A stretch of DNA of 64,000 nt. It comes from a virus. This document shows positions 16,742 to 61,883 of this stretch, one piece after another. The position numbers were made by a program, and so were the translations under genes. Positions within the stretch are counted from its first letter, which is position 1, and the number at the start of each line of letters is the position of its first letter. The DNA lies in the IMG/VR virus record IMGVR_UViG_3300035557_000069; one strand, 5' to 3'. The notes beneath the pieces are model-generated. The model worked only from the letters and a program-made list of their open reading frames with translations, was not told where the DNA came from and did no database searches.

Positions 16742-16748
16742 CTAAATA
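16742..16748 (+). promoter_or_regulatory. Late-promoter-like motif CTAAATA, 30 nt upstream of the plus-strand gene at 16778.
   Basis: It resembles the T4 late -10 TATAAATA. It forms a perfect inverted pair with the minus-strand copy at 16764-16770 inside a 49-bp divergent intergenic region. Confidence 0.35.
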
Positions 16749-16763
16749 GATAGAGTTCTACTA

Positions 16764-16770
16764 TATTTAG
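16764..16770 (-). promoter_or_regulatory. Late-promoter-like motif CTAAATA on the minus strand, 36 nt upstream of the leftward structural operon that starts at 16728.
   Basis: Plus strand reads TATTTAG. Mirror partner of 16742-16748. Confidence 0.35.
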
Positions 16771-25701: not shown

Positions 25702-26295
25702 TTAATTTAGGTCCTTGATGTGGTCAATGATACCGTAAGCCTTCGCTTCCTTCGGTGTCAAGTAAACATCGGTAGGAGGCAGAAGGATTTCACGGATTTT
25801 CTTTTCGTCCAAGCCAGTGCATTTCTTGTAATGCTCAATGACTTTTCTATCGGTAAGCTGAAACTCTTTCATAACTGCCAGCAGTTCGTGGTGCTTGCCG
25901 ATGGAGCCACCTGAGTATTGATGGGACATAATGGTGGTGTTATTAGTGCAGAAACGCCTGCCTTTAGAACCAGACATAACAATCATTGTACCAGCAGAAG
26001 CGATTTCACCCAGACCCACGGTGCTGATGGGGATATTGGAGCCGCGCATAATGTCAATGAGTGCCCAAGCCGCGGAGAGGAGCCCACCCGGACTACAGAC
26101 CAAGAGAGTCAGTGTTTCTGGTTTCTCTTCCGCAAAGTTTGCTTCGATGATCCACTCAATCGTGGGTTTTACCGTGTCATAATTTATTTCATCCATCAAC
26201 AGCGAGTAAGACTGCCCCGAGGGCTGAACGTTGAACATCTTTGCTATGTTTCCGAACATATGTCCAGATGATTTTGGTCGAATAGATTTGGTCAT
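25702..26295 (-). CDS. clpP: ClpP-like serine protease subunit, 197 aa.
   Basis: Catalytic-triad context: GEIASAGT (Ser), MSHQYSGG (His; compare MIHQPLGG) and EAKAYGIID (Asp region). Length is typical of ClpP. Confidence 0.7.
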   Translation of the reverse strand: MTKSIRPKSSGHMFGNIAKMFNVQPSGQSYSLLMDEINYDTVKPTIEWIIEANFAEEKPETLTLLVCSPGGLLSAAWALIDIMRGSNIPISTVGLGEIASAGTMIVMSGSKGRRFCTNNTTIMSHQYSGGSIGKHHELLAVMKEFQLTDRKVIEHYKKCTGLDEKKIREILLPPTDVYLTPKEAKAYGIIDHIKDLN

Positions 26296-26504
26296 TCGTT
26301 TTCCTTTATGATTTTGATAGCACGTTTCAGTACGTAGTTTTCTTCCGATAAGCGTTCACATCTATCTTCAAGATTACAAAGATGCCTGATGATGTTTTCA
26401 AAAGCCGCCTTGTCAATGGGCTTTCTTTTAAGAGCATTTTTTACATCAAAAATATCATCTTGTAGACTCATATAGTATTCCTTAATGTGTAATATAATGA
26501 GCAT
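26292..26504 (-). CDS. Hypothetical small protein, 70 aa.
   Basis: ORF track. Overlaps the clpP start by 4 nt. Confidence 0.35.
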   Translation of the reverse strand: MLIILHIKEYYMSLQDDIFDVKNALKRKPIDKAAFENIIRHLCNLEDRCERLSEENYVLKRAIKIIKENE

Positions 26505-26547
26505 AAAGCGGGTTTATGAGCATTATAATATACATTATGATTGGGCG

Positions 26548-26590
26548 GTAGAACTTCAATGGCTTTCGCCTCCATTCTACCGCCCCTATC
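26548..26590. other. Strong 11-bp inverted repeat (GGGCGGTAGAA ... TTCTACCGCCC) with a 21-nt loop.
   Basis: Read from the sequence between the tandem-repeat block and the start of the 70-aa gene. Candidate terminator or RNA element. Confidence 0.5.
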
Positions 26591-26639
26591 CTTGTCTTTC
26601 TTACGTATCAACTTCATACGACTTCGAAGACTTTTACTC

Positions 26640-26853
26640 AATAAGTTAAGTTATATTTTAGTTAGAGTGTGGTACTTCTCGCACACTGTTCAGCGAGTTA
26701 AGCTAGCCATAGTCGCGTTTCATAAGTGCCTCCATCACCAATTAGCAATAAGTTAAGTTATATTTTAGTTAGAGTGTGGTACTTCTCGCACACTGTTCAG
26801 CGAGTTAAGCTAGCCATAGTCGCGTTTCATAAGTGCCTCCATCACCAATTAGC
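26640..26853. repeat. Perfect tandem duplication of a 107-bp unit (copy 1 26640-26746, copy 2 26747-26853).
   Basis: Both copies are identical at every position I compared. Each unit contains the imperfect hairpin AGTGTG-gtacttctcg-CACACT and, on the minus strand, GGAGG-N6-ATG followed by a 6-codon ORF (MKRDYG*). Confidence 0.9.
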
Positions 26854-26887
26854 TTAGTGTTGAACGGATATGTGAAACAATCTGTCC

Positions 26888-27013
26888 TTAGGCAACCAAT
26901 GCCTTACATTTAGGACAGAGAAAGTTGTGACCACCACGGTCGCAATGAACCTGACCAATGTTACCCTTCCAACCACACTTCTTACACTCAATCTTTTCTT
27001 TTTCGTAACTCAT
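26888..27013 (-). CDS. Zinc-ribbon mini-protein of 41 aa (MSYEKEKIECKKCGWKGNIGQVHCDRGGHNFLCPKCKALVA).
   Basis: Read from the sequence. Two CxxC pairs. Its ATG overlaps the upstream stop (ATGA). Below the track cutoff. Confidence 0.35.
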   Translation of the reverse strand: MSYEKEKIECKKCGWKGNIGQVHCDRGGHNFLCPKCKALVA

Positions 27014-27345
27014 ACAACAGGCTCAACCTTCACGCTTAGAGTAATATCAACATAGTAATAAGTGGCAACATGACTACCAAATAAACCAACCTTTGCTTTC
27101 CAAGAACTAGCGCCTGGTTGATGGAAAAGTTCTGGCCACGTCTCTGGTATTAATTTATTAAGATTTGCCGCCGCCTTCACTTGAGCATCATCAAGAAAAC
27201 GTTTGCGTTCGGTTTCTTCCTGCGCTGTTAAAAACAGACCCCTCTTCTTAGGATATTCAACAGTGGGATGATGGAACTCGTTAATAGCCGCGACGACCTC
27301 GGGGATATGGTCGACAAACAGCTTATATCGCTTTTTGAGAATCAT
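27010..27345 (-). CDS. Hypothetical protein, 111 aa.
   Basis: ORF track. Confidence 0.45.
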   Translation of the reverse strand: MILKKRYKLFVDHIPEVVAAINEFHHPTVEYPKKRGLFLTAQEETERKRFLDDAQVKAAANLNKLIPETWPELFHQPGASSWKAKVGLFGSHVATYYYVDITLSVKVEPVV

Positions 27346-27515
27346 AACAGACCAGCCTTAATGTCTCTCTTTTTCAAGTCACGGGCAATCTCAACGTCAC
27401 ACCAGTGAAACGAATCGGGATCAGCAATTTCGATGACTCTTTTGAGAAAAGCAGTGGCGTTCGGAGAATCGGAGTACTTGTCAAGAGTGCTTTCGATATC
27501 GTAGTATTTCGTCAC
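27342..27515 (-). CDS. Small protein of ~57 aa that more likely starts at GTG 27515 (V-T-K-Y-Y-D...).
   Basis: AAAGGAG sits 6 nt upstream of an in-frame GTG and directly downstream of a PeSL-type promoter. The track's longer ORF (to 27566) would run across that promoter. Confidence 0.35.
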   Translation of the reverse strand: MTKYYDIESTLDKYSDSPNATAFLKRVIEIADPDSFHWCDVEIARDLKKRDIKAGLL

Positions 27516-27580
27516 TGGTTTCTCCTTTGGGTTTGTCTCAATCACAAATATACTATACAACACCAAACCAGAGAAGTCAA
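27516..27580 (-). promoter_or_regulatory. Early sigma70-type promoter cassette of the PeSL-like family: -35 TTGACT (27575-27580), 17-bp spacer, -10 TATAGT (27552-27557), conserved leader and SD.
   Basis: Minus strand reads TTGACTtctctggtttggtgttgTATAGTatatttgtgattgagacaaacccAAAGGAGaaacca-GTG. Confidence 0.6.
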
Positions 27581-27589
27581 CAGAAATCT

Positions 27590-28237
27590 TTACACACCGA
27601 ATCTTTTTTCGTACTCACGACGAAGGGATAGGAAGCCACCAATCCATGTGTCTCGGCGCTCTTGGAAAACTTGTGGTTCATCATCGTCAACAGCAATGAT
27701 GATGACAAGTTGATTGATGGGTTTGGCGTAGAGTTCTTCCCACATAACAGCATAGGCTGCCGCTTGCATAAAGTAGTGGTGAATGGTTTCCATCTTCTTG
27801 CGCTTCGTGGAGGTCTTGAAGTCAATAACAGACAGACGATTACCATACTGGGCAAAACAGTCCGCAGTACCAGCCGCACGAAGATACTTGGAATAGAGTG
27901 GAACTTCCAAGCCATAGACCGTGGTGATGTTATTCAGAACGGGTTTAATGGAGTTCCAAATCTCTCTGTCAAACATATTCGGCTTGACTTCATCGTTCTT
28001 TAGGTAAGACTCACAGAGGTTGTGGATACGGGTACCACGACTACCTGCGCGGGCACCAATCTTAGTAGCTTCCTCTGCACCAACACGTTCTTTCCATTCA
28101 GCAATAGAAGTCTCGTTGTGAATAGAGGTGATGGTTGTTACAGAGGGTAACAGAAGCCCCTCGCAGTCGTAATATCGCTTACCGTCTTGCTCCACTCGCG
28201 GTAATCTTTTTGCCTTGACGGGTTGATAATCAAACAT
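27590..28237 (-). CDS. PD-(D/E)xK nuclease of the RecB/Cas4-like PDDEXK_1 family, 215 aa.
   Basis: Motif LSVIDFKTS (compare IIDYKTG) and the C-terminal QAAAYAVMWEE Q..Y motif. Confidence 0.55.
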   Translation of the reverse strand: MFDYQPVKAKRLPRVEQDGKRYYDCEGLLLPSVTTITSIHNETSIAEWKERVGAEEATKIGARAGSRGTRIHNLCESYLKNDEVKPNMFDREIWNSIKPVLNNITTVYGLEVPLYSKYLRAAGTADCFAQYGNRLSVIDFKTSTKRKKMETIHHYFMQAAAYAVMWEELYAKPINQLVIIIAVDDDEPQVFQERRDTWIGGFLSLRREYEKRFGV

Positions 28238-29106: not shown

Positions 29107-29114
29107 TATTTATA
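29107..29114 (-). promoter_or_regulatory. T4-type late promoter TATAAATA (minus strand), ~29 nt upstream of the Zn-ribbon/GH19 lysozyme gene pair.
   Basis: Plus strand reads tatttata at 29107-29114. Exact match to the T4 late -10 consensus. Confidence 0.55.
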
Positions 29115-29116
29115 CG

Positions 29117-29141
29117 AAAAAGCGGGGGATTTCTCCCCCGC
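29117..29141 (-). terminator. Rho-independent terminator after phoH.
   Basis: Minus strand reads GCGGGGGA-gaaa-TCCCCCGC followed by TTTTTCG, 6 nt after the phoH stop. Confidence 0.7.
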
Positions 29142-29146
29142 TAGAG

Positions 29147-34607: not shown

Positions 34608-34675
34608 TAGAAAGCCTCCTGGTTAGTGTTTCTCAATTACAGATACACTATACAAGAGGCTGAGGTTAATGTCAA
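34608..34675 (-). promoter_or_regulatory. Early promoter cassette of the PeSL-like family: -35 TTGACA (34670-34675), N17, -10 TATAGT (34647-34652).
   Basis: Minus strand reads TTGACAttaacctcagcctcttgTATAGTgtatctgtaattgagaaacactaaccAGGAGGctttctaATG. Confidence 0.6.
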
Positions 34676-34694
34676 CAGAAAAAAGAGAGGGGCG

Positions 34695-42635: not shown

Positions 42636-42722
42636 CTTGCTCACTTTCGCTTTAGCCGGGAGGTAGGAAAGAAGACAGGGAATGAAGAAGCCGAGCAACA
42701 TCACGATTTCGTATTTCATAGA
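42636..42722 (-). CDS. Hydrophobic peptide of 28 aa (MKYEIVMLLGFFIPCLLSYLPAKAKVSK). It is the first gene after a PeSL-type promoter.
   Basis: Read from the sequence. AAGGAG sits 6 nt upstream. Confidence 0.3.
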
Positions 42723-42781
42723 GTCTCCTTGGTTAGCGTCGATTACAGATACATCTTACACCAACCAAGAAGTTGTGTCAA
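42723..42781 (-). promoter_or_regulatory. Early promoter cassette of the PeSL-like family: -35 TTGACA (42776-42781), N17, -10 TAAGAT (42753-42758).
   Basis: Minus strand reads TTGACAcaacttcttggttggtgTAAGATgtatctgtaatcgacgctaaccAAGGAGactctATG. Confidence 0.6.
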
Positions 42782-42784
42782 CAC

Positions 42785-43132
42785 TTATTTTTGTTCGGGA
42801 CGTGTTTTCATCATTTTTTCTGCGATTGTCCAAGCTAACTTACAACGGTCTTCGTTGTTGCCCGCTCCAGCATAGTCTTTGTAGCAAGAGAGAATGCCTT
42901 GGAGGGCGCCTAGGGCGAACTGGTCCCTGAGGCGGGTTTCATACTGCTCTTGATTCAACTCATGGTTCTTCCGATTGCGTTCGGCTTCCTCTTCCGCCAG
43001 CACCATCAGCTTGTCAACCATTTCGCCCAAGAGACGCCTGTTCTGCTCCTCAAGGCGCTTGGCATGGGCTTCATTCAAACGATTAATCTCTTCAATGTAT
43101 CTGTCAAGGTCAGTCACGGGGATCCTCCTCAC
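42785..43132 (-). CDS. Hypothetical protein, 115 aa.
   Basis: ORF track. Confidence 0.4.
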   Translation of the reverse strand: MRRIPVTDLDRYIEEINRLNEAHAKRLEEQNRRLLGEMVDKLMVLAEEEAERNRKNHELNQEQYETRLRDQFALGALQGILSCYKDYAGAGNNEDRCKLAWTIAEKMMKTRPEQK

Positions 43133-45318: not shown

Positions 45319-45590
45319 TTCAGAAACTCCTTGATTTTGTAGTTCCAGACGGTGTATTTGGCAGTCTTGATATTCAAGTTGAAACCGTAGTTGATACGAT
45401 CATGAGCAGTTTCGTGAATGTAACTGTCAGCAAGGCCAACTTCGACCAGTTTGTCTAGACGATAGCGAGTTTGGGAAACAGTCAAACCCAAGTGTTTTGC
45501 CCAATCGCGAAGAGAAAGCGATTTGCTTTCCGCATCCTCAAAGAGAAAAACGTTTTCTCGGACGATACTTTCAACAGTAATCTTGGGCAT
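45315..45590 (-). CDS. Putative winged-helix DNA-binding protein, 91 aa.
   Basis: HTH-like LSLRDWAKHLGLTVSQTRYRLDKL. It is the first gene after a PeSL-type promoter. Confidence 0.4.
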   Translation of the reverse strand: MPKITVESIVRENVFLFEDAESKSLSLRDWAKHLGLTVSQTRYRLDKLVEVGLADSYIHETAHDRINYGFNLNIKTAKYTVWNYKIKEFLK

Positions 45591-45652
45591 TGTGTCTCCT
45601 TGGTTGGTGTCGATTACATATACATCCTACACCAACCAAGGAGAGAAGTCAA
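45591..45652 (-). promoter_or_regulatory. Early promoter cassette of the PeSL-like family: -35 TTGACT (45647-45652), N17, -10 TAGGAT (45624-45629).
   Basis: Minus strand reads TTGACTtctctccttggttggtgTAGGATgtatatgtaatcgacaCCAACCAAGGAGacacaATG. Its 12-bp inverted repeat CTCCTTGGTTGG/CCAACCAAGGAG spans the spacer and the SD. Confidence 0.6.
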
Positions 45653-45658
45653 CCATTA

Positions 45659-45892
45659 TTATATAATCAGCGGAGATTTTTCTTCTTGGGGTTCCGCCGA
45701 CCAAGGCATACGGGGGCGACCACAGCTTGCACACACGAAGATTTGGACGGGTTGCTCAATATCTTTGCTTGATCCCACCATGACTCCGGGCACTCGTTTG
45801 ATGATGACAGCATCCCCGAAATAGGGACAACCACACTCACAGGTGATGTTTTCACACTGGGAGATATCCATCTTAACCGACATTTTATCCAT
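45659..45892 (-). CDS. Zinc-ribbon protein, 77 aa.
   Basis: CEC..C ... CASCG. Confidence 0.4.
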   Translation of the reverse strand: MDKMSVKMDISQCENITCECGCPYFGDAVIIKRVPGVMVGSSKDIEQPVQIFVCASCGRPRMPWSAEPQEEKSPLII

Positions 45893-48663: not shown

Positions 48664-48702
48664 CTCAGTTCCTTTCGTGGTGGGAGTGTCAACTACAGTT
48701 AC

Positions 48703-48731
48703 AATATACAGTAAAGCGTGGTGACTGTCAA
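48703..48731 (-). promoter_or_regulatory. Sigma70-type promoter: -35 TTGACA (48726-48731), N17, -10 TATATT (48703-48708). It is embedded in a 9-bp inverted repeat (GCGTGGTGA ... TCACCACGC) that, read on the plus strand, is followed by TTTTTTG.
   Basis: Read from the sequence. It may double as a terminator for plus-strand read-through. Confidence 0.5.
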
Positions 48732-48842
48732 GAAAAATCTTTCAATCACCACGCTTTTTTGTTTTGGCGGAGGACTTTGGCGCAACCCGCTTATCTCGCG
48801 ACTTCCACGGAGCCCGGTTATTTCATCCACCAGCCTGAATTG

Positions 48843-50228: not shown

Positions 50229-50635
50229 GATATGTCACCTTTCATAATAAGCTGGCTGGTCTTGGACAGTTTAAAGTGATATCCATCACTTGCGGTCGGA
50301 TGACCTTCTCAGTAGGAGAGTTGCTGAACCCAGCCATGGGTTAACGTTCTGAGTGTACTTTCTTTTCCAGTAGTATGAATGGTAGTTAAGTTGCTGTAGA
50401 CACTCACTTTAGCCAAGATGAAGCTGTTCTGGATGGTTTATCGATACCGTGTGTTCAGTCATACCGATAGATGGCGTTATTGCCAATTACTTCATTGCCG
50501 ATAGGTTAGATGTTTCTCTTAGCCATGTCTTTAAGTAGTAGTAATTGCTGTACCCATCCAAGGTTTATTTGTTGCTCTTCAATACATAGACACTATAACA
50601 TCACCATTTTTTCGTGTCAAACTTTCTCTAAAAAA

Positions 50636-50938: not shown

Positions 50939-51645
50939 TAGATGACGCCCGGAGTAATGATACTCATAACTTCGGCAAGAGTACCCGTGGCATTCTGTCC
51001 GAACGCAACATATGCATAAGAACTGATGAAAGCCATTGCACTAGCATTAGCCGAGACCTCACCGCTTCCGGTAGTCTCAAACGTAGCAGTCAACGTGGCG
51101 ATATCCGCAACAAGAGCCTCGTGGAGTGGTGTAAAGTTCTCTAGAAGATAACCAACGTCCGGACCTTCACCAATTTCCGGCTGATTGGCAATCAACGCGG
51201 CAAACTCCGCCTCATAGCTTGAGTATATAGCCACTTCGCTGGCTTGATAGTCGGCATCGAAAGTTTTTGTACCCAGAAACATATAGGTACTTTGTTCAGC
51301 AACTGGCGGCAGACCATCTAGATTGTTAACCTCATTCTGAACATTAGTGGCGGATGACAGAAACATCAACTTGGTTTTATAAGCATCATTTGCCAACCAA
51401 GTATTGTTATAATGGTCAAGATATACTTCTTTTAACAATTCAAGGGCAGCCAGAACCTCAGCCTTCTCAACGGAGATATCAACAGGCGTCTCAATGGGTT
51501 CTGGATCACCAATCATCTCATAAACGTAAATCGTTTCATAAGTGGTATTAGCAACAGTCTTTAACGCATCAATCGCGGTAAAGATAGCTGTATACGGATT
51601 GGAGACTGGATTACCAGAGGCATCTATTTTATCAGAGTAAGACAT
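50938..51645 (-). CDS. Hypothetical protein co-transcribed upstream of the PAAR gene, 235 aa.
   Basis: AGGAG SD. Its stop overlaps the PAAR start. Confidence 0.45.
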   Translation of the reverse strand: MSYSDKIDASGNPVSNPYTAIFTAIDALKTVANTTYETIYVYEMIGDPEPIETPVDISVEKAEVLAALELLKEVYLDHYNNTWLANDAYKTKLMFLSSATNVQNEVNNLDGLPPVAEQSTYMFLGTKTFDADYQASEVAIYSSYEAEFAALIANQPEIGEGPDVGYLLENFTPLHEALVADIATLTATFETTGSGEVSANASAMAFISSYAYVAFGQNATGTLAEVMSIITPGVI

Positions 51646-51655
51646 GGAGACTCCT

Positions 51656-51831
51656 AAAAGGGTAACCCGTTTTTTTCTGTTTCCAAGACAAAACGGGTAA
51701 AATCTCAGTCGCGGTTAAGCGGCAAGGGCAAAGTCATACTCGCCTTTTATTGCTTTTGTCTGATATACGGCCATGACATTCCGGACTGTCCATCTTCGTA
51801 CTTGTTACCCAGTCGAAACCTTGGCACCCCC
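51656..51831 (-). ncRNA. ssrA: tmRNA (ssrA) 5' acceptor piece: acceptor 5' strand GGGGGUG (51831-51825), spacer CCAAG, D-loop analogue GUUUCGACUGGG (51819-51808), then a downstream region ending in an intrinsic terminator hairpin (51665-51698 plus a U-tract).
   Basis: Read from the sequence. Spacing and sequence match the E. coli tmRNA 5' end GGGGCUG-AUUCU-GGAUUCGACGGG. GGGGGUG pairs with the 3' strand CACCUCC at 51931-51937, with a G3·U wobble. The terminator is ACCCGUUUU...AAAACGGGU plus CUUUU. Confidence 0.55.
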
Positions 51832-51926
51832 ATCAACAGCATACTAGCAGAAGCCTCTAATCTCGCCCCAGTGGGCATAACACATGGCCTCAGTGCCCCG
51901 ATGTGTCCGGGATGATAGTATGCTCT

Positions 51927-52010
51927 TGGTGGAGGTGGCGGGATCGAACCCGCGTCCTAAGCACCTTTCGGTTGACTTCATACAGTCATATTGCTATTTA
52001 GTTATTACTA
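51927..52010 (-). ncRNA. ssrA: tmRNA (ssrA) 3' piece: T-arm, acceptor 3' strand and ACCA end (core 51927-51957), with short hairpins upstream. It lies 95 nt upstream of the 5' acceptor piece, so the gene looks circularly permuted (two-piece). The upstream boundary is uncertain.
   Basis: Minus strand reads GGAC-GCGGG-UUCGAU-CCCGC-CACCUCC-A-CCA. The E. coli tmRNA 3' end is GGACGCGGGUUCAACUCCCGCCAGCUCCACCA. A73 discriminator. No canonical tRNA 5' half lies within 100 nt upstream. Confidence 0.55.
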
Positions 52011-52328
52011 GAAACGTATTTCGTGATCAACAAGTGGTCCAAGATACTTGTTAATATCAGGATAAGTGCGAATAGTTTTCCACTCACACCACCTCGGTTT
52101 ATGATATCCTCGTTCCGCGTGTTCACTAGTATCAGAAAGATACTCAAACAGGGCGGCGACCATAAGAATCATAAACGGATGGGTCTTTCTATTCACATTA
52201 TGATGTTTATTAAACTGTGAAAGATACGCTCTTCCAGTATCACAATGAGCCACAGTTGTGCAGGACTTCACAACCTTTATGACTTTTTTCAAGTCCGAGT
52301 GTGCTTTACAGTTGTCATAGAAACTCAT
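52008..52328 (-). CDS. ORF of 106 aa that ends in three consecutive stops (UAG UAA UAA), ~50 nt before the tmRNA T-arm. It may be a protein gene and/or may contain the tmRNA tag reading frame.
   Basis: ORF track. SD AAGGAA upstream. The triple-stop reading is from the sequence. Confidence 0.3.
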   Translation of the reverse strand: MSFYDNCKAHSDLKKVIKVVKSCTTVAHCDTGRAYLSQFNKHHNVNRKTHPFMILMVAALFEYLSDTSEHAERGYHKPRWCEWKTIRTYPDINKYLGPLVDHEIRF

Positions 52329-53111: not shown

Positions 53112-53683
53112 TTAGAACCCTTTCACCATTGGGTACTGATTGAACGCCTTGGCAAGCAACTCAAAATCATCAGTCAGTTCCGGGTTAGCAACTTCAACGT
53201 TATTGACGTTGACCCAGACGACCTCGGCCCATTTATTGTTGAGGTCTTTCAAACCATCAACAGCCACACCGAGAGTCTTCACAAGCGAGTAACCGAAGCG
53301 GCGTTCACCTTCCCAGAAGACAACACCCTTGGTACCTTTCTTGACCTTACGACCCGCGACGACCACGACTTCGGAGCCCTTGCGAACGCGGTGGGCGCGT
53401 TCAAGGTCTTCCGATTTCAGTTTGCGAAAAGCGAGTTCACGTTTATGCGCGGCATACTTCGCCTTGACTTCATCCGTCGCGTCAATCTTGCACGAAACAT
53501 CGCCGCAACCGAAGCGAGTGCTGTAGACAATACGCGACTCAGGCGCGTTTTTCTCTTTGTTCCAGACAATCACAAGTTCGTCCCAGTCATCATACCACGA
53601 CTGGTGACCAGTCTCAAGAACAGCGCCCTCAAACTCAACAATCTTTTCGCCAGTTTCGTGATTGGTGTAAATGACGGGCATTG
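53112..53683 (-). CDS. Hypothetical protein, ~189 aa from the Met at 53683 (MPVIYTNHETGEK...).
   Basis: The PeSL promoter and AAGGAGAGACTCA-ATG fix the start at 53683. The track ORF extends 17 codons upstream, across the promoter. Confidence 0.45.
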
Positions 53684-53745
53684 AGTCTCTCCTTGGTTGG
53701 CGTCGATTACAGATACATCTTACACCAACCAAGGAGACTTGTCAA
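53684..53745 (-). promoter_or_regulatory. Early promoter cassette of the PeSL-like family: -35 TTGACA (53740-53745), N17, -10 TAAGAT (53717-53722). Its 12-bp inverted repeat spans the spacer and the SD.
   Basis: Minus strand reads TTGACAagtCTCCTTGGTTGGtgTAAGATgtatctgtaatcgacgCCAACCAAGGAGagactcaATG. Confidence 0.65.
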
Positions 53746-53755
53746 CAACTATTTT

Positions 53756-55180
53756 TCACAAAATGGGTTTATTTGCGTTCTCCCGAATCTTCTCAAAGTT
53801 AGTCAAGGCAACAAACGGCTCATACAGTTTCTTCGTCATAGTGTAGACCAAGTTCAGGATAATCTTGTCTTCCCAATTCTGGTCATCCAGACGAACGGTT
53901 TTTGCCTTGCCTTCCTCGTCCTCCACGACAGTGAGGCGACCACGTTTGCTTTCTTTGCCCGGTGCTTCCTTGAAAACATCAATCCATTTACCATTGACAA
54001 GCAGGGCGCAACACTTCATGGCGAATCCGTAGGTGTCGCGGTTAACGTGTTGGAGCAGGGCACCACCCATCCCGAATGCTACGTTGTCAGCACTGAAACC
54101 TGCCCACTTGAGAGTAGCTAGGATTTCGTTGATGCTGGCTTTGTTGATGCCGTCTCCTTGAATAACGCGAACATAAGGAGGAAGCACTTTGTAACCCTTG
54201 CTGTTCCGAGTGGTACCAAACTTCTCTGCAAGGATTTCAACACAACGGCGTACGGTCGGAGCGGGGTCCCCCGAGTCCGGACGAATAACCAGAGTACCAC
54301 CAACTGCGCCGAGGGCTTCAACATCTGCCTTCAACTCGGTACCCCAGAGTTCACAAGCCTTGAAGATATCGTAGCTGTCCGAAACAACAGCCACAAGCTT
54401 GCCAGGACCGCCGTATTGTTTCAGCATATTGCGGTATGCTTCAACTTCGTTGTCTTTACCCCAACTGGTGATGGTGCTATGTTCAGCCGCAGGAATACTG
54501 AACCCTGCCATCTCTGCACCGTAGTAGTGATTGGCATACTGAACACCCTCAACAGTGTCCGAGCCGAGAAAGTTTACAAGGTGAGCCGCACCGCCGATAC
54601 CAGCAGTTTCACCCGAAGAGCAACCACGACCACCGAAGTCATGGAGTTTGAATGCGACTTGCTCTTGAACGTCACTGGTCCGCTCAAGGAAGTCTTTGAT
54701 GACTTTCTTGCAGTCATAACTTACAGTGGCGACCGAAGACGGGTACCAGATGGCGCGAAGTAGAGCCGTTTCGAGGAAGTTCACGATCCAAAAGCACACA
54801 GGATCAGTACAACATATCGTAAGTAAGCAATTACGATTTTTAATAACAGTTCCTTCAGGTAAAGCCTTGATAGTGACAGGCATATATCCTTTATACTCGG
54901 TTAGTATATACTCAAATCCTTGTTTATTGAAAGGAACCCCATGTGCTTTACAGAACAGTTCAGCCTCTTCAATATCAGCTTGAGTAATCGGGGTGAGTAG
55001 ATAGTCCTTGATGAACATCTGTAATCCAAAGAACACAAGATGATCTCCTCCTCTCGCTTCAATATACGATTGCATCCCCTCGGCTCCCGGAGGATATTGT
55101 CCTTGATGTTCAGTGTTATTGATACCGATTGAATGCGAGAATTTGTATGAATCGGTGGATAGTAGGATATTTCTTTTCAT
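53756..55180 (-). CDS. nadV: Nicotinamide phosphoribosyltransferase (NadV/Nampt), 474 aa.
   Basis: Length and motifs (STDSYKFSH N-terminus, IRPDSGDP, GDGI) are typical of Nampt. Confidence 0.85.
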   Translation of the reverse strand: MKRNILLSTDSYKFSHSIGINNTEHQGQYPPGAEGMQSYIEARGGDHLVFFGLQMFIKDYLLTPITQADIEEAELFCKAHGVPFNKQGFEYILTEYKGYMPVTIKALPEGTVIKNRNCLLTICCTDPVCFWIVNFLETALLRAIWYPSSVATVSYDCKKVIKDFLERTSDVQEQVAFKLHDFGGRGCSSGETAGIGGAAHLVNFLGSDTVEGVQYANHYYGAEMAGFSIPAAEHSTITSWGKDNEVEAYRNMLKQYGGPGKLVAVVSDSYDIFKACELWGTELKADVEALGAVGGTLVIRPDSGDPAPTVRRCVEILAEKFGTTRNSKGYKVLPPYVRVIQGDGINKASINEILATLKWAGFSADNVAFGMGGALLQHVNRDTYGFAMKCCALLVNGKWIDVFKEAPGKESKRGRLTVVEDEEGKAKTVRLDDQNWEDKIILNLVYTMTKKLYEPFVALTNFEKIRENANKPIL

Positions 55181-58753: not shown

Positions 58754-58820
58754 TTGTGGTCTCCTTTGGGGTTAGCGTCAATCACAAATACACTATACAC
58801 CAGAAGGAGACCACTGTCAA
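58754..58820 (-). promoter_or_regulatory. Early promoter cassette of the PeSL-like family: -35 TTGACA (58815-58820), N17, -10 TATAGT (58792-58797).
   Basis: Minus strand reads TTGACAgtggtctccttctggtgTATAGTgtatttgtgattgacgctaaccccAAAGGAGaccacaaaATG. Confidence 0.6.
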
Positions 58821-58832
58821 CAACAAAATACC

Positions 58833-59117
58833 TTATTCCACTTTTTTCTTTCGTACTCGCTTGGGCTTGACTTCCGGTGGTTGGGGCTCCTCAGCGATTT
58901 TTTGCTCCGGTTTGGTAGCTGTCTCTAGGGCAGTCTTCAAATCGGCAACACAATTCTCATAGAATACCACATCCTCCCGCCAGTGCTTTTTCAACTCGGC
59001 ATTCTGAGAGGTCAGTTCGTTCTCAATATCTTGGAGTTTGAGAACGTTATTCCGATACACCAAGATCCCAATAACGAAACCAATAGCGATACCCACAAAA
59101 AACGCGATAAAACTCAT
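58833..59117 (-). CDS. Type-II membrane protein with an N-terminal TM helix and a coiled-coil ectodomain (spanin- or FtsB-like architecture), 94 aa.
   Basis: FIAFFVGIAIGFVIGILVY, then a heptad-like LKLQDIENELTSQNAELKK and a Lys-rich tail. Confidence 0.4.
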   Translation of the reverse strand: MSFIAFFVGIAIGFVIGILVYRNNVLKLQDIENELTSQNAELKKHWREDVVFYENCVADLKTALETATKPEQKIAEEPQPPEVKPKRVRKKKVE

Positions 59118-61796: not shown

Positions 61797-61883
61797 AGTT
61801 ATTCCTTTAATATCTCATTTCTTCCTAACACAGTTACTATACTAGGTCCACAATAGGTTGTCAAGAGAAATCTTTAGAGTTCC

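What the first reader, a model, noticed from the sequence alone, without database searches (positions are those of the whole stretch)
26640..26853. Perfect 2 x 107-bp tandem duplication in a 500-bp non-coding gap
Two identical head-to-tail copies with no detectable divergence point to a very recent duplication or active maintenance. Each unit carries an imperfect hairpin (AGTGTG-N10-CACACT) and, on the coding (minus) strand, GGAGG-N6-ATG plus a 6-codon ORF (MKRDYG). That layout could be a leader-peptide or attenuator, or an sRNA, present in two copies. The block is followed by a strong 11-bp-stem hairpin (26548-26590) and a TATAAT-like box before the next gene. It is not CRISPR-like, since there are no spacers and only two copies.
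Basis: seen in the sequence. Interest (0 to 1): 0.5.

Follow-up and report, generated by a model that had tools for sequence, protein, structure and literature searches.

The report
Recent tandem duplication in phage spacer
A 107-base stretch of non-coding DNA in a T4-like phage from a metagenome is repeated head-to-tail at least twice; this is most likely a young, unstable copying accident in a fast-changing part of the genome rather than a regulatory device.

Summary
Window 26639-26853 contains two identical head-to-tail copies of a 107-nt unit, and it is the only long tandem repeat in the 64 kb. The unit-to-unit junction also appears in other assemblies of the same phage clone. A k=31 Logan assembly breaks exactly k-1 bases inside each edge of the array. 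A 67.6-kb JGI contig ends with two full copies plus 7 nt of a third. The junction is therefore real, but "2" is only a lower bound on copy number, because no other short-read assembly spans the array.

The regulatory reading is not supported. The unit folds no better than shuffled sequence. It has no promoter, no terminator and no Rfam match. It sits in a roughly 1.05-kb cassette of ORFan genes that is absent from the closest syntenic relative. The mini-ORF (MKRDYG) and the 6-bp hairpin are present but cannot be told apart from chance features.

The strongly structured element lies next to the array, not in it: a hairpin at 26543-26585 and a palindrome at 26483-26537.

Best reading: a recent duplication with 1 nt of microhomology at its boundaries, in a hyperplastic region of a T4-like phage, with copy number probably changing through homologous recombination. 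Interest is low.

The parts
26746..26852 (-). Repeat copy 1 (upstream copy in the direction of transcription), 107 nt. Base 26853 is shared with the left flank (1 nt of microhomology).
26639..26745 (-). Repeat copy 2 (downstream copy), 107 nt, 100% identical to copy 1.
26810..26840 (-). GGAGG (26836-26840), 5 nt, then the mini-ORF ATG..TAG (26810-26830) encoding MKRDYG, in copy 1. The same feature in copy 2 lies at 26703-26733.
   Evidence: Read directly. No evidence that it is translated.
26666..26687 (.). 6-bp stem, 10-nt loop hairpin AGTGTG/CACACT in copy 2 (26773-26794 in copy 1). It overlaps an alternative 5-bp hairpin, CTCGC/GCGAG. Both are weak.
   Evidence: the unit's fold is not better than shuffles
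26543..26585 (.). Hairpin H1 outside the array: perfect 11-bp G+C-rich stem and 21-nt loop containing a small GGC-GAAA-GCC hairpin. No U-run follows it on the minus strand. The plus strand has a T-rich tail.
26483..26537 (.). Palindrome H2: 25-nt arms, 84% complementary, 5-nt centre, directly upstream of the Shine-Dalgarno sequence of the 59-aa gene. It contains the 'TATAAT-like' boxes.
   Evidence: H1+H2 z-score -6.3 on the plus strand, -5.8 on the minus strand
26888..27013 (-). Upstream gene: 41-aa CxxC...CxxC zinc-ribbon-like ORFan. Its stop codon is 34 nt before the array.
   Evidence: called in three assemblies
26292..26471 (-). Downstream gene: 59-aa ORFan, followed by a ClpP-like protease (25702-26295), a gp33-like coactivator, a gp59-like loader and gp32.
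27552..27580 (-). Nearest upstream early-type promoter (TTGACT-17-TATAGT), a member of a dispersed promoter/stem-loop family. Inferred source of the transcript that reads through the array.
26295..27345 (-). Lineage-specific cassette (111-aa gene, 41-aa gene, array, hairpins, 59-aa gene). It has no counterpart in the closest syntenic relative L010.

Best explanation
The array is a real and evolutionarily young tandem duplication of a 107-bp non-coding segment. It lies in the untranslated spacer of an early transcription unit, inside a hyperplastic ORFan cassette of a T4-like phage.

Inferred origin: one template-switch or illegitimate-recombination event with only 1 nt of microhomology at the boundaries. 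Once two identical copies exist, the phage's own very active homologous recombination can add or remove copies by unequal exchange. The phage population would then carry a mix of copy numbers, and short-read assemblies would fail to cross the array.

The duplication survives because it lies in non-coding DNA. A 107-nt insert is not a multiple of 3 and would frameshift any gene. It probably has little or no function of its own. The SD + MKRDYG mini-ORF and the small hairpin are passengers, possibly the remnant of a decayed gene start.

Shown: the repeat, its perfection, its junction in other assemblies, its lineage specificity, and the absence of regulatory signals. Inferred: the mechanism of origin, the copy-number instability and the neutrality.
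For: - Repeat: a perfect 2 x 107 nt, the only long tandem repeat in 64 kb.
- Boundaries: they share only one base (G on the minus strand).
- Logan k=31 assembly: the left contig L003 ends with exactly G plus the first 29 nt of the unit. The right contig L006 starts with exactly the last 30 nt of the unit. Both are k-1 nodes, as expected if unit-end to unit-start junction k-mers are present in the reads of SRR36367033.
- JGI contig L002 (67.6 kb): it ends with 2 full units plus 7 nt of a third. Its terminal k-mers of 116 nt or more are absent from the window, and its tail fits only models with 3 or more copies.
- Other assemblies: no other assembly of the same clone spans the array, although all are 100% identical in the flanks.
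- T4-like identity: gp33-like, gp59-like and gp32 genes sit next to the array.
- Variability: the region is hypervariable among relatives. L010 keeps the exonuclease, the early promoter, the 57-aa gene and ClpP, but replaces 27345-26295 with one unrelated 65-aa gene. L001, L007-L009, L016 and L018 carry other contents.
- ORFans: the flanking 111-aa and 59-aa proteins are ORFans among 5.8 billion proteins.
- No regulatory signals: no promoter or terminator, no Rfam hit, no excess RNA structure in the unit, and no copy elsewhere in the window or in three public collections.
Against: - No reads were available, so copy number and heterogeneity are inferred only from how assemblies behave.
- The 3-copy reading of the JGI contig could be a loop-traversal artefact of multi-k assembly.
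- All contigs are 100% identical, so the datasets may come from one site and are independent assemblies rather than independent populations.
- A neutral 107-bp perfect duplication should be lost fairly quickly in a highly recombinogenic phage. Its presence in every dataset that covers the site leaves room for selection.
- A good Shine-Dalgarno sequence at the correct spacing from an ATG is not the most expected chance feature.
- Absence of conservation cannot separate 'no function' from 'new function'.
Confidence: 0.7

Rival explanations
1. The unit is a functional cis-regulatory RNA or small RNA present in two doses. It could be a translated leader (MKRDYG) with alternative hairpins acting as an attenuator, or a small RNA processed from the 3' UTR of the early operon.
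For: - GGAGG lies 5 nt before an ATG, followed by a 6-codon ORF.
- Two mutually exclusive small hairpins, CTCGC/GCGAG and AGTGTG/CACACT, follow the ORF.
- The array lies on the transcribed strand downstream of an early promoter at 27552-27580, with no terminator in between.
Against: - Fold z-scores are -0.70 and -0.37, so the unit is no more structured than shuffled sequence.
- No terminator-like hairpin with a U-run occurs in or after the unit, although this phage does use canonical terminators elsewhere.
- The unit has no promoter of its own, and Rfam gives no match at E<=10.
- The mini-ORF has no run of regulatory codons.
- The next gene is about 170 nt beyond the array, behind H1 and H2.
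- No relative carries the element, so covariation cannot be tested.
Confidence: 0.1
2. The array is a dosage-tunable element under selection, a small 'accordion'. It could be an RNA decoy or sponge, or an array of phased protein-binding sites, with copy number expanded by unequal recombination. A comparison is the expansion of pseudo-ToxI repeats in phage PhiTE to escape ToxIN (my own knowledge, not checked in the paper library).
For: - Assemblies disagree on copy number, 2 versus at least 3.
- The copies are perfectly identical.
- Each unit carries two copies of a 10-mer (AGTTAAGYTA), giving four sites spaced 52/55/52 nt, about five helical turns.
- The setting is an accessory ORFan cassette, where anti-defence genes are often found.
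Against: - The unit length of 107 nt is unlike the 34-45-nt units of type III antitoxin RNAs (my own knowledge).
- No Rfam match, and no internal sub-periodicity beyond one 10-mer pair, which my rough estimate puts within chance.
- No nuclease or toxin-like partner gene lies nearby.
- No RNA structure signal.
- Copy-number disagreement is equally expected for a neutral repeat.
Confidence: 0.07
3. Assembly artefact: the phage really has one copy, and the duplication was created by the assembler or by joining contig ends.
For: - A perfect repeat is exactly what an untrimmed overlap would look like.
- Only one contig (the 69,459-bp source seen) spans the array.
Against: - 107 is not a usual assembler k.
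- The junction is written out in a second contig from a different assembly (L002).
- A k=31 assembly by a different program breaks at exactly k-1 nt inside both edges. This requires junction k-mers in the reads.
- With a single copy there is no junction k-mer and no reason for any assembler to break there.
Confidence: 0.03
4. The gap is partly coding. A 57-aa ORF (26468-26641, minus strand) starts with the TTG formed by the last 3 nt of the array and ends in an ATGA overlap with the 59-aa gene, so the array would be its 5' leader.
For: The ORF exists, and its stop codon overlaps the next start codon in the ATGA arrangement typical of coupled phage genes.
Against: - No gene caller reported it in three assemblies.
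- No Shine-Dalgarno sequence precedes the TTG or the internal ATG.
- The ORF is filled by the two strongest hairpins of the region.
- A full HMMER scan of 1.84 billion representative proteins gave only two weak multi-stretch hits to long, unrelated-looking proteins.
Confidence: 0.05

Closest known systems
Spontaneous tandem duplications and segmental amplifications in T4-type phages ('accordion' behaviour; e.g. classical T4 rII duplications and amplifications selected under defence pressure). Cited from my own knowledge, not checked in the paper library.
   Same: Head-to-tail identical copies. Boundaries with little or no homology. Occurrence in a phage with T4-type recombination and replication genes. 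Expected instability of copy number through homologous recombination.
   Different: Known cases usually involve kilobase segments carrying genes and were found under selection. Here only 107 bp of non-coding DNA is involved, and no selective agent is known.
PeSL cassettes (promoter-early stem-loops) and hyperplastic regions of T4-like phages (Arbiol et al. 2010, PMC2839356; Comeau et al. 2014, PMC4122927)
   Same: The array sits in a block of small ORFan genes that differs between close relatives. The window has a dispersed family of sigma-70-like promoters combined with a stem-loop and a Shine-Dalgarno sequence. One of them lies 700 nt upstream of the array and is conserved in relative L010.
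   Different: The 107-nt unit has no promoter and no terminator-like stem-loop and no similarity to that family. It is tandem, not dispersed. It is not a PeSL.
Leader-peptide transcription attenuators (trp/his type)
   Same: A short ORF with a Shine-Dalgarno sequence, followed by two overlapping alternative hairpins.
   Different: No terminator, no regulatory codons, no adjacent regulated gene, no conservation, and no excess folding energy.
Type III toxin-antitoxin RNA repeats (ToxI and phage pseudo-ToxI). Cited from my own knowledge.
   Same: Perfect tandem non-coding repeats in a phage whose number can change.
   Different: The unit is three times longer. There is no toxN-like gene and no Rfam match.

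Membership tests
Simple recent tandem duplication (structural variant) | Two or more head-to-tail copies with (near-)identical sequence | tested here: met
   Period 107, 2.0 copies, 100% identity
Simple recent tandem duplication (structural variant) | The novel unit-to-unit junction is present in independent data, so it is not an assembler product | tested here: met
   The junction is written in JGI contig L002. The Logan k=31 contigs end and start exactly k-1 nt inside the array. Reads themselves were not available.
Simple recent tandem duplication (structural variant) | A single-copy ancestral state exists in relatives or in the population | tested here: inconclusive
   No contig with one copy was found. 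Relatives lack the whole cassette. Exact searches of viral, metagenome and genome collections found nothing.
Simple recent tandem duplication (structural variant) | Copy-number variation between genomes | tested here: inconclusive
   The window has 2 copies. The tail of L002 fits only 3 or more. This may reflect loop traversal by the assembler.
Leader peptide / transcription attenuator | Short translated ORF with a ribosome-binding site | tested here: met
   GGAGG-N5-ATG plus 6 codons. Translation was not tested.
Leader peptide / transcription attenuator | Intrinsic terminator with a competing antiterminator, directly upstream of the regulated gene | tested here: not met
   No terminator-like site in the array. 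The hairpins are weak and the unit's z-score is -0.70. The next gene is about 170 nt away, behind H1 and H2.
Small RNA gene | Own promoter and terminator, stable or conserved structure, or a match to a known family | tested here: not met
   No promoter or terminator. z-scores are -0.70 and -0.37. No Rfam match at E<=10 inside the array. No homologues, so covariation cannot be tested.
PeSL (promoter-early stem-loop) cassette | Strong sigma-70-like promoter combined with a terminator stem-loop, dispersed in many copies | tested here: not met
   The unit has none of these and is not similar to the dispersed family D1/D2.
CRISPR array | Short repeats separated by unique spacers | tested here: not met
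   The copies abut with no spacer, and the unit is 107 nt.
Type III antitoxin-like RNA repeats (ToxI / CptI / TenpI) | Tandem units of about 34-45 nt next to, or mimicking the partner of, an endoribonuclease toxin | tested here: not met
   The unit is 107 nt with no internal sub-period. No Rfam match. The neighbouring genes are a Zn-ribbon ORFan, a 59-aa ORFan and a ClpP-like protease.
Iteron / centromere-like protein-binding array | Several short, significantly recurring binding motifs and a cognate binding-protein gene | tested here: inconclusive
   One 10-mer pair per unit, spaced 52/55 nt. My rough estimate puts this within chance. No partition or initiator gene was recognised nearby.

The most novel reading that the evidence does not exclude
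The 107-nt unit is a new kind of copy-number-tunable non-coding element, kept in multiple copies by selection and expanded or contracted by the phage's own recombination. Candidate roles are an RNA decoy or sponge, an array of ribosome-loading mini-ORFs, or phased protein-binding sites. It would serve in anti-defence or in control of the downstream ClpP / gp33 / gp59 / gp32 genes.
Probability: 0.06. Interest if true: 0.6.

Novelty: new member of a known kind. Interest (0 to 1): 0.17.

Why it matters
As it stands, this matters mainly as a technical caution. A perfect 107-bp repeat breaks short-read assemblies of this phage at one fixed point, and the copy number written in any contig cannot be trusted. 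For assembler k between 107 and 213, the shortest path through the assembly graph gives exactly two copies whatever the true number.

Biologically it is a small, fresh example of how the hyperplastic ORFan regions of T4-like phages change. If read data showed that multi-copy genomes are stably favoured, it would become a tractable case of dosage tuning of a non-coding phage element. Nothing found here points that way.

Tried and rejected
- **Known RNA families.** Rfam at gathering thresholds over the whole window, and at E<=10 over 26300-27100, gave nothing in the array.
- **RNA structure of the unit.** Neither strand folds better than shuffles. The strong z-score of the whole gap (-3.5) comes from the two hairpins outside the array.
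- **Promoters.** The early consensus TTGAC-N18-TATANT is clearly enriched in the window (9 found against 0.2 expected), but none lies in the gap. The probable late motif CTAAATA/TATAAATA is absent from the gap; the unit has CTAAAATA, with one extra A. I considered a MotA-box-like TTGCTAAT created at the junction and dropped it, because no suitably spaced -10 follows.
- **Other copies of the unit.** None in the window, in INPHARED phages, or as exact 20-37-mers in IMG/VR, JGI metagenome contigs or GTDB genomes.
- **Relatives.** The flanking 111-aa and 59-aa proteins have no homologues. ClpP-based relatives at 60-76% identity do not contain the cassette and have no comparable tandem repeats.
- **An 11-mer shared with a relative.** TAAAATATAAC also occurs in the spacer upstream of ClpP in L010. 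It does not extend and does not recur in the window, so I treat it as chance.
- **A decayed tmRNA.** Relatives L016 and L001 carry a permuted tmRNA in this slot, so I asked whether the gap is a decayed copy. There is no Rfam or BLAST support.
- **The 57-aa ORF at the array edge.** No homologues.
- **Terminal inverted repeats, target-site duplication, genome terminus.** The sequence does not support any of these.
- **Sample accessions.** They were not found in the paper library.

Full report
**1. The observation**

Tandem Repeats Finder reports one array at 26639-26853: period 107, 2.0 copies, 100% matches, no indels. The exact-seed repeat finder gives the two copies as 26639-26745 and 26746-26852. 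It is the only tandem repeat in the 64-kb window with a period above 21 nt.

- The AGTGTG-N10-CACACT hairpin is present (26666-26687 and 26773-26794). Its 6-bp stem is perfect, not imperfect.
- GGAGG is followed by 5 nt, not 6, and then ATG AAA CGC GAC TAT GGC TAG (MKRDYG) on the minus strand.
- The 11-bp hairpin is at 26543-26585, 5 nt from the stated position.
- The TATAAT-like box belongs to a palindrome with 25-nt arms at 26483-26537.

**2. Context**

All genes here run on the minus strand.
- Upstream of the array: a PD-(D/E)XK exonuclease (27590-28237), a small gene called as 57 or 67 aa depending on the gene caller, a 111-aa ORF (27010-27345) and a 41-aa zinc-ribbon-like ORF (26888-27013).
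- Downstream: a 59-aa ORF (26292-26471), a ClpP-like protease, a gp33-like late-transcription coactivator, an AAA kinase, a gp59-like helicase loader and gp32.

This is a T4-like phage. It has no close relative in INPHARED: megablast found nothing, and blastn gave only 65-75% identity patches in the endolysin and exonuclease genes. The non-coding gap measures 416 bp (26472-26887).

**3. Is the duplication real, or an assembly product?**

Exact-protein look-ups found other contigs of the same phage clone. All are 100% identical to the window over everything they cover. None of them crosses the array.

- *Logan assembly of SRR36367033 (k=31).* The left contig ends with G plus the first 29 nt of the unit. 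The right contig begins with the last 30 nt of the unit. These are exactly the k-1 nodes at which a de Bruijn graph branches when the end of the unit is followed both by the right flank and by another unit. Junction k-mers are therefore present in those reads. A single-copy genome would give no break.
- *JGI contig Ga0394088_087292 (67.6 kb).* It ends with two full units plus 7 nt of a third. Its terminal k-mers of 116 nt or more are absent from the window, and its last 300 nt fit only models with at least three copies.
- *What "two copies" means.* For any assembler k between 107 and 213, the shortest path through the graph of an array with three or more copies yields exactly two copies (last lines, plus my reasoning). 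The window's "two copies" is therefore a lower bound.
- *Source contig.* Only a 69,459-bp JGI/ENA contig, presumably the window's source, carries both flanking proteins.

Conclusion: the junction is real. Copy number is at least 2 and unresolved, and it may be heterogeneous. The three-copy reading could still be a loop-traversal artefact of multi-k assembly. The datasets may also come from one site.

**4. What the unit does not contain**

- RNA folding of the 107-nt unit is no better than dinucleotide shuffles on either strand (z -0.70 and -0.37).
- The promoter/terminator scan finds nothing in the array.
- The phage's early promoters are easy to recognise. TTGAC-N18-TATANT occurs 9 times against 0.2 expected. 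It belongs to a dispersed cassette with a conserved leader and, in several copies, a stem-loop and a Shine-Dalgarno sequence. The nearest one is at 27552-27580, so the array is probably transcribed by read-through from there (inference).
- The likely late motif CTAAATA/TATAAATA is absent from the gap. It is seen as a divergent pair at 16742/16764 and downstream of a canonical terminator at 29107.
- Rfam has no match in the array, even at E<=10.
- The unit has no second copy in the window and no exact 20-37-mer in IMG/VR, JGI metagenome contigs or GTDB genomes.
- 107 is not a multiple of 3, and no minus-strand ORF crosses the array.
- A 57-aa ORF starts at the array's last TTG and ends in an ATGA overlap with the 59-aa gene. 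It was not reported by the gene callers of the other assemblies and has no meaningful homologues among 1.84 billion representative proteins.

**5. What is structured**

The structured element lies outside the array. H1 (26543-26585) and the palindrome H2 (26483-26537) give z = -6.3 on the plus strand and -5.8 on the minus strand. These two account for the z of -3.5 for the whole gap. H1 has no U-run on the minus strand, unlike this phage's canonical terminators. On the plus strand it is followed by a T-rich stretch.

**6. Comparison with relatives**

ClpP-based searches found relatives at 60-76% protein identity. The order PhoH - GH19 - exonuclease - [variable slot] - ClpP ... gp33 - gp59 - gp32 is conserved, but the slot differs in every lineage.

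In the closest syntenic relative, L010, DNA similarity runs through the exonuclease, the early promoter and the 57-aa gene. It stops at window position 27370 and resumes in ClpP at 26278. In between, L010 has one unrelated 65-aa gene, where the window has the 111-aa gene, the 41-aa gene, the array, the hairpins and the 59-aa gene.

The 111-aa and 59-aa proteins have no homologues among 5.8 billion proteins. Relatives show no comparable tandem repeats. The array therefore lies in a lineage-specific ORFan cassette in a hyperplastic region, of the kind described for T4-like phages (PMC2839356, PMC4122927). No covariation or conservation test is possible.

**7. Most likely explanation**

The array is a young tandem duplication generated by template switching or illegitimate recombination. 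The boundaries share a single base. It is tolerated because it lies in non-coding DNA.

The following rests on my own knowledge, not on tool results. The T4 mutation rate is about 2e-8 per bp per replication, so two 107-nt copies would stay identical for on the order of 1e5 replications. T4-type recombination is frequent enough that unequal exchange between 107-bp repeats should change copy number at an appreciable rate. That would produce the mixed population that best explains why every short-read assembly stumbles here.

The mini-ORF and the small hairpins are probably passengers. Confidence is about 0.7.

**8. Rivals**

- A leader, attenuator or sRNA (about 0.1). It fails the terminator, promoter, structure and conservation tests.
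- A selected, dosage-tunable decoy or binding array (about 0.07). It has only the copy-number disagreement and a non-significant phased 10-mer in its favour.
- A hidden 57-aa gene (about 0.05).
- A pure assembly artefact with one true copy (about 0.03). The junction evidence contradicts it.

**9. Novelty and score**

This is an ordinary kind of event, a recent tandem duplication in a plastic phage region, at a new place. No known family claims the sequence. Interest is low (0.17). The useful outcome is the caution about copy number and the concrete read-level tests listed under next steps.

Noticed in passing
window 51624-52018 (-); also L016 7828-8286 and L001 4544-4906: The phage encodes a circularly permuted (two-piece) tmRNA: Rfam RF04321 at 104.6 bits, ARAGORN tag GEYDFALAA. 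Two relatives carry a permuted tmRNA (tags ANDSVYALAA and ANDNVFALAA) in the variable slot upstream of ClpP, which is the slot holding the 107-nt array in the window. Phage-encoded two-piece tmRNAs have been reported (e.g. PMC9004378, seen but not read). This may hint at a host whose own tmRNA is two-piece.
   Followed up: partly
window 27515-27595, 34610-34690, 42716-42800, 45587-45671, 48666-48746, 50555-50635, 53680-53764, 58755-58835, 61799-61879 (all -); L010 875-955: A dispersed family of early-promoter cassettes: A/T-rich upstream stretch, TTGACA, 17 nt, TATAGT, a conserved leader GTATCTGTAATTGAC, then AACCAAGGAGA and a start codon. In three copies (42.7, 45.6 and 53.7 kb) a 12-bp stem (CTCCTTGGTTGG / CCAACCAAGGAG) encloses the -10 box. 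It resembles the PeSL cassettes of T4-like phages and is conserved in a relative.
   Followed up: partly
window 26483-26585: A double hairpin next to the array: an 11-bp G+C-rich stem with an inner GNRA mini-hairpin, plus a palindrome with 25-nt arms that abuts the ribosome-binding site of the 59-aa gene. z is -6.3 on the plus strand and -5.8 on the minus strand. It could be an operator, an RNA stability or processing element, or an antisense small RNA on the plus strand. For the last option there is a weak promoter-like site at 26440-26468 (+) and a T-rich tail after 26586. It is unique in the window, with no Rfam match.
   Followed up: partly
window 16742-16748 (+) and 16764-16770 (-); 29107-29114 (-): A divergent pair of CTAAATA motifs in the 50-nt gap between two oppositely oriented gene blocks that, by position, appear to be structural. 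A TATAAATA lies just after a canonical terminator at about 29120-29145. These are probably gp55-type late promoters. The motif count is not enriched in the window as a whole.
   Followed up: partly
window 26468-26641 (-): A 57-aa ORF whose TTG start is the last 3 nt of the repeat array and whose stop overlaps the start of the 59-aa gene (ATGA). It was not reported by the gene callers of the other assemblies, and there is no real homologue among 1.84 billion proteins.
   Followed up: yes
L010 1316-1326 vs window 26650-26660 and 26757-26767: An 11-mer from the repeat unit, TAAAATATAAC, also occurs once in the closest relative, in the short spacer just upstream of its ClpP gene. It does not extend and does not recur elsewhere in the window. 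Probably chance.
   Followed up: yes
window 1-64000: No tRNA genes in 64 kb of a T4-like phage that nevertheless carries a tmRNA.
   Followed up: no
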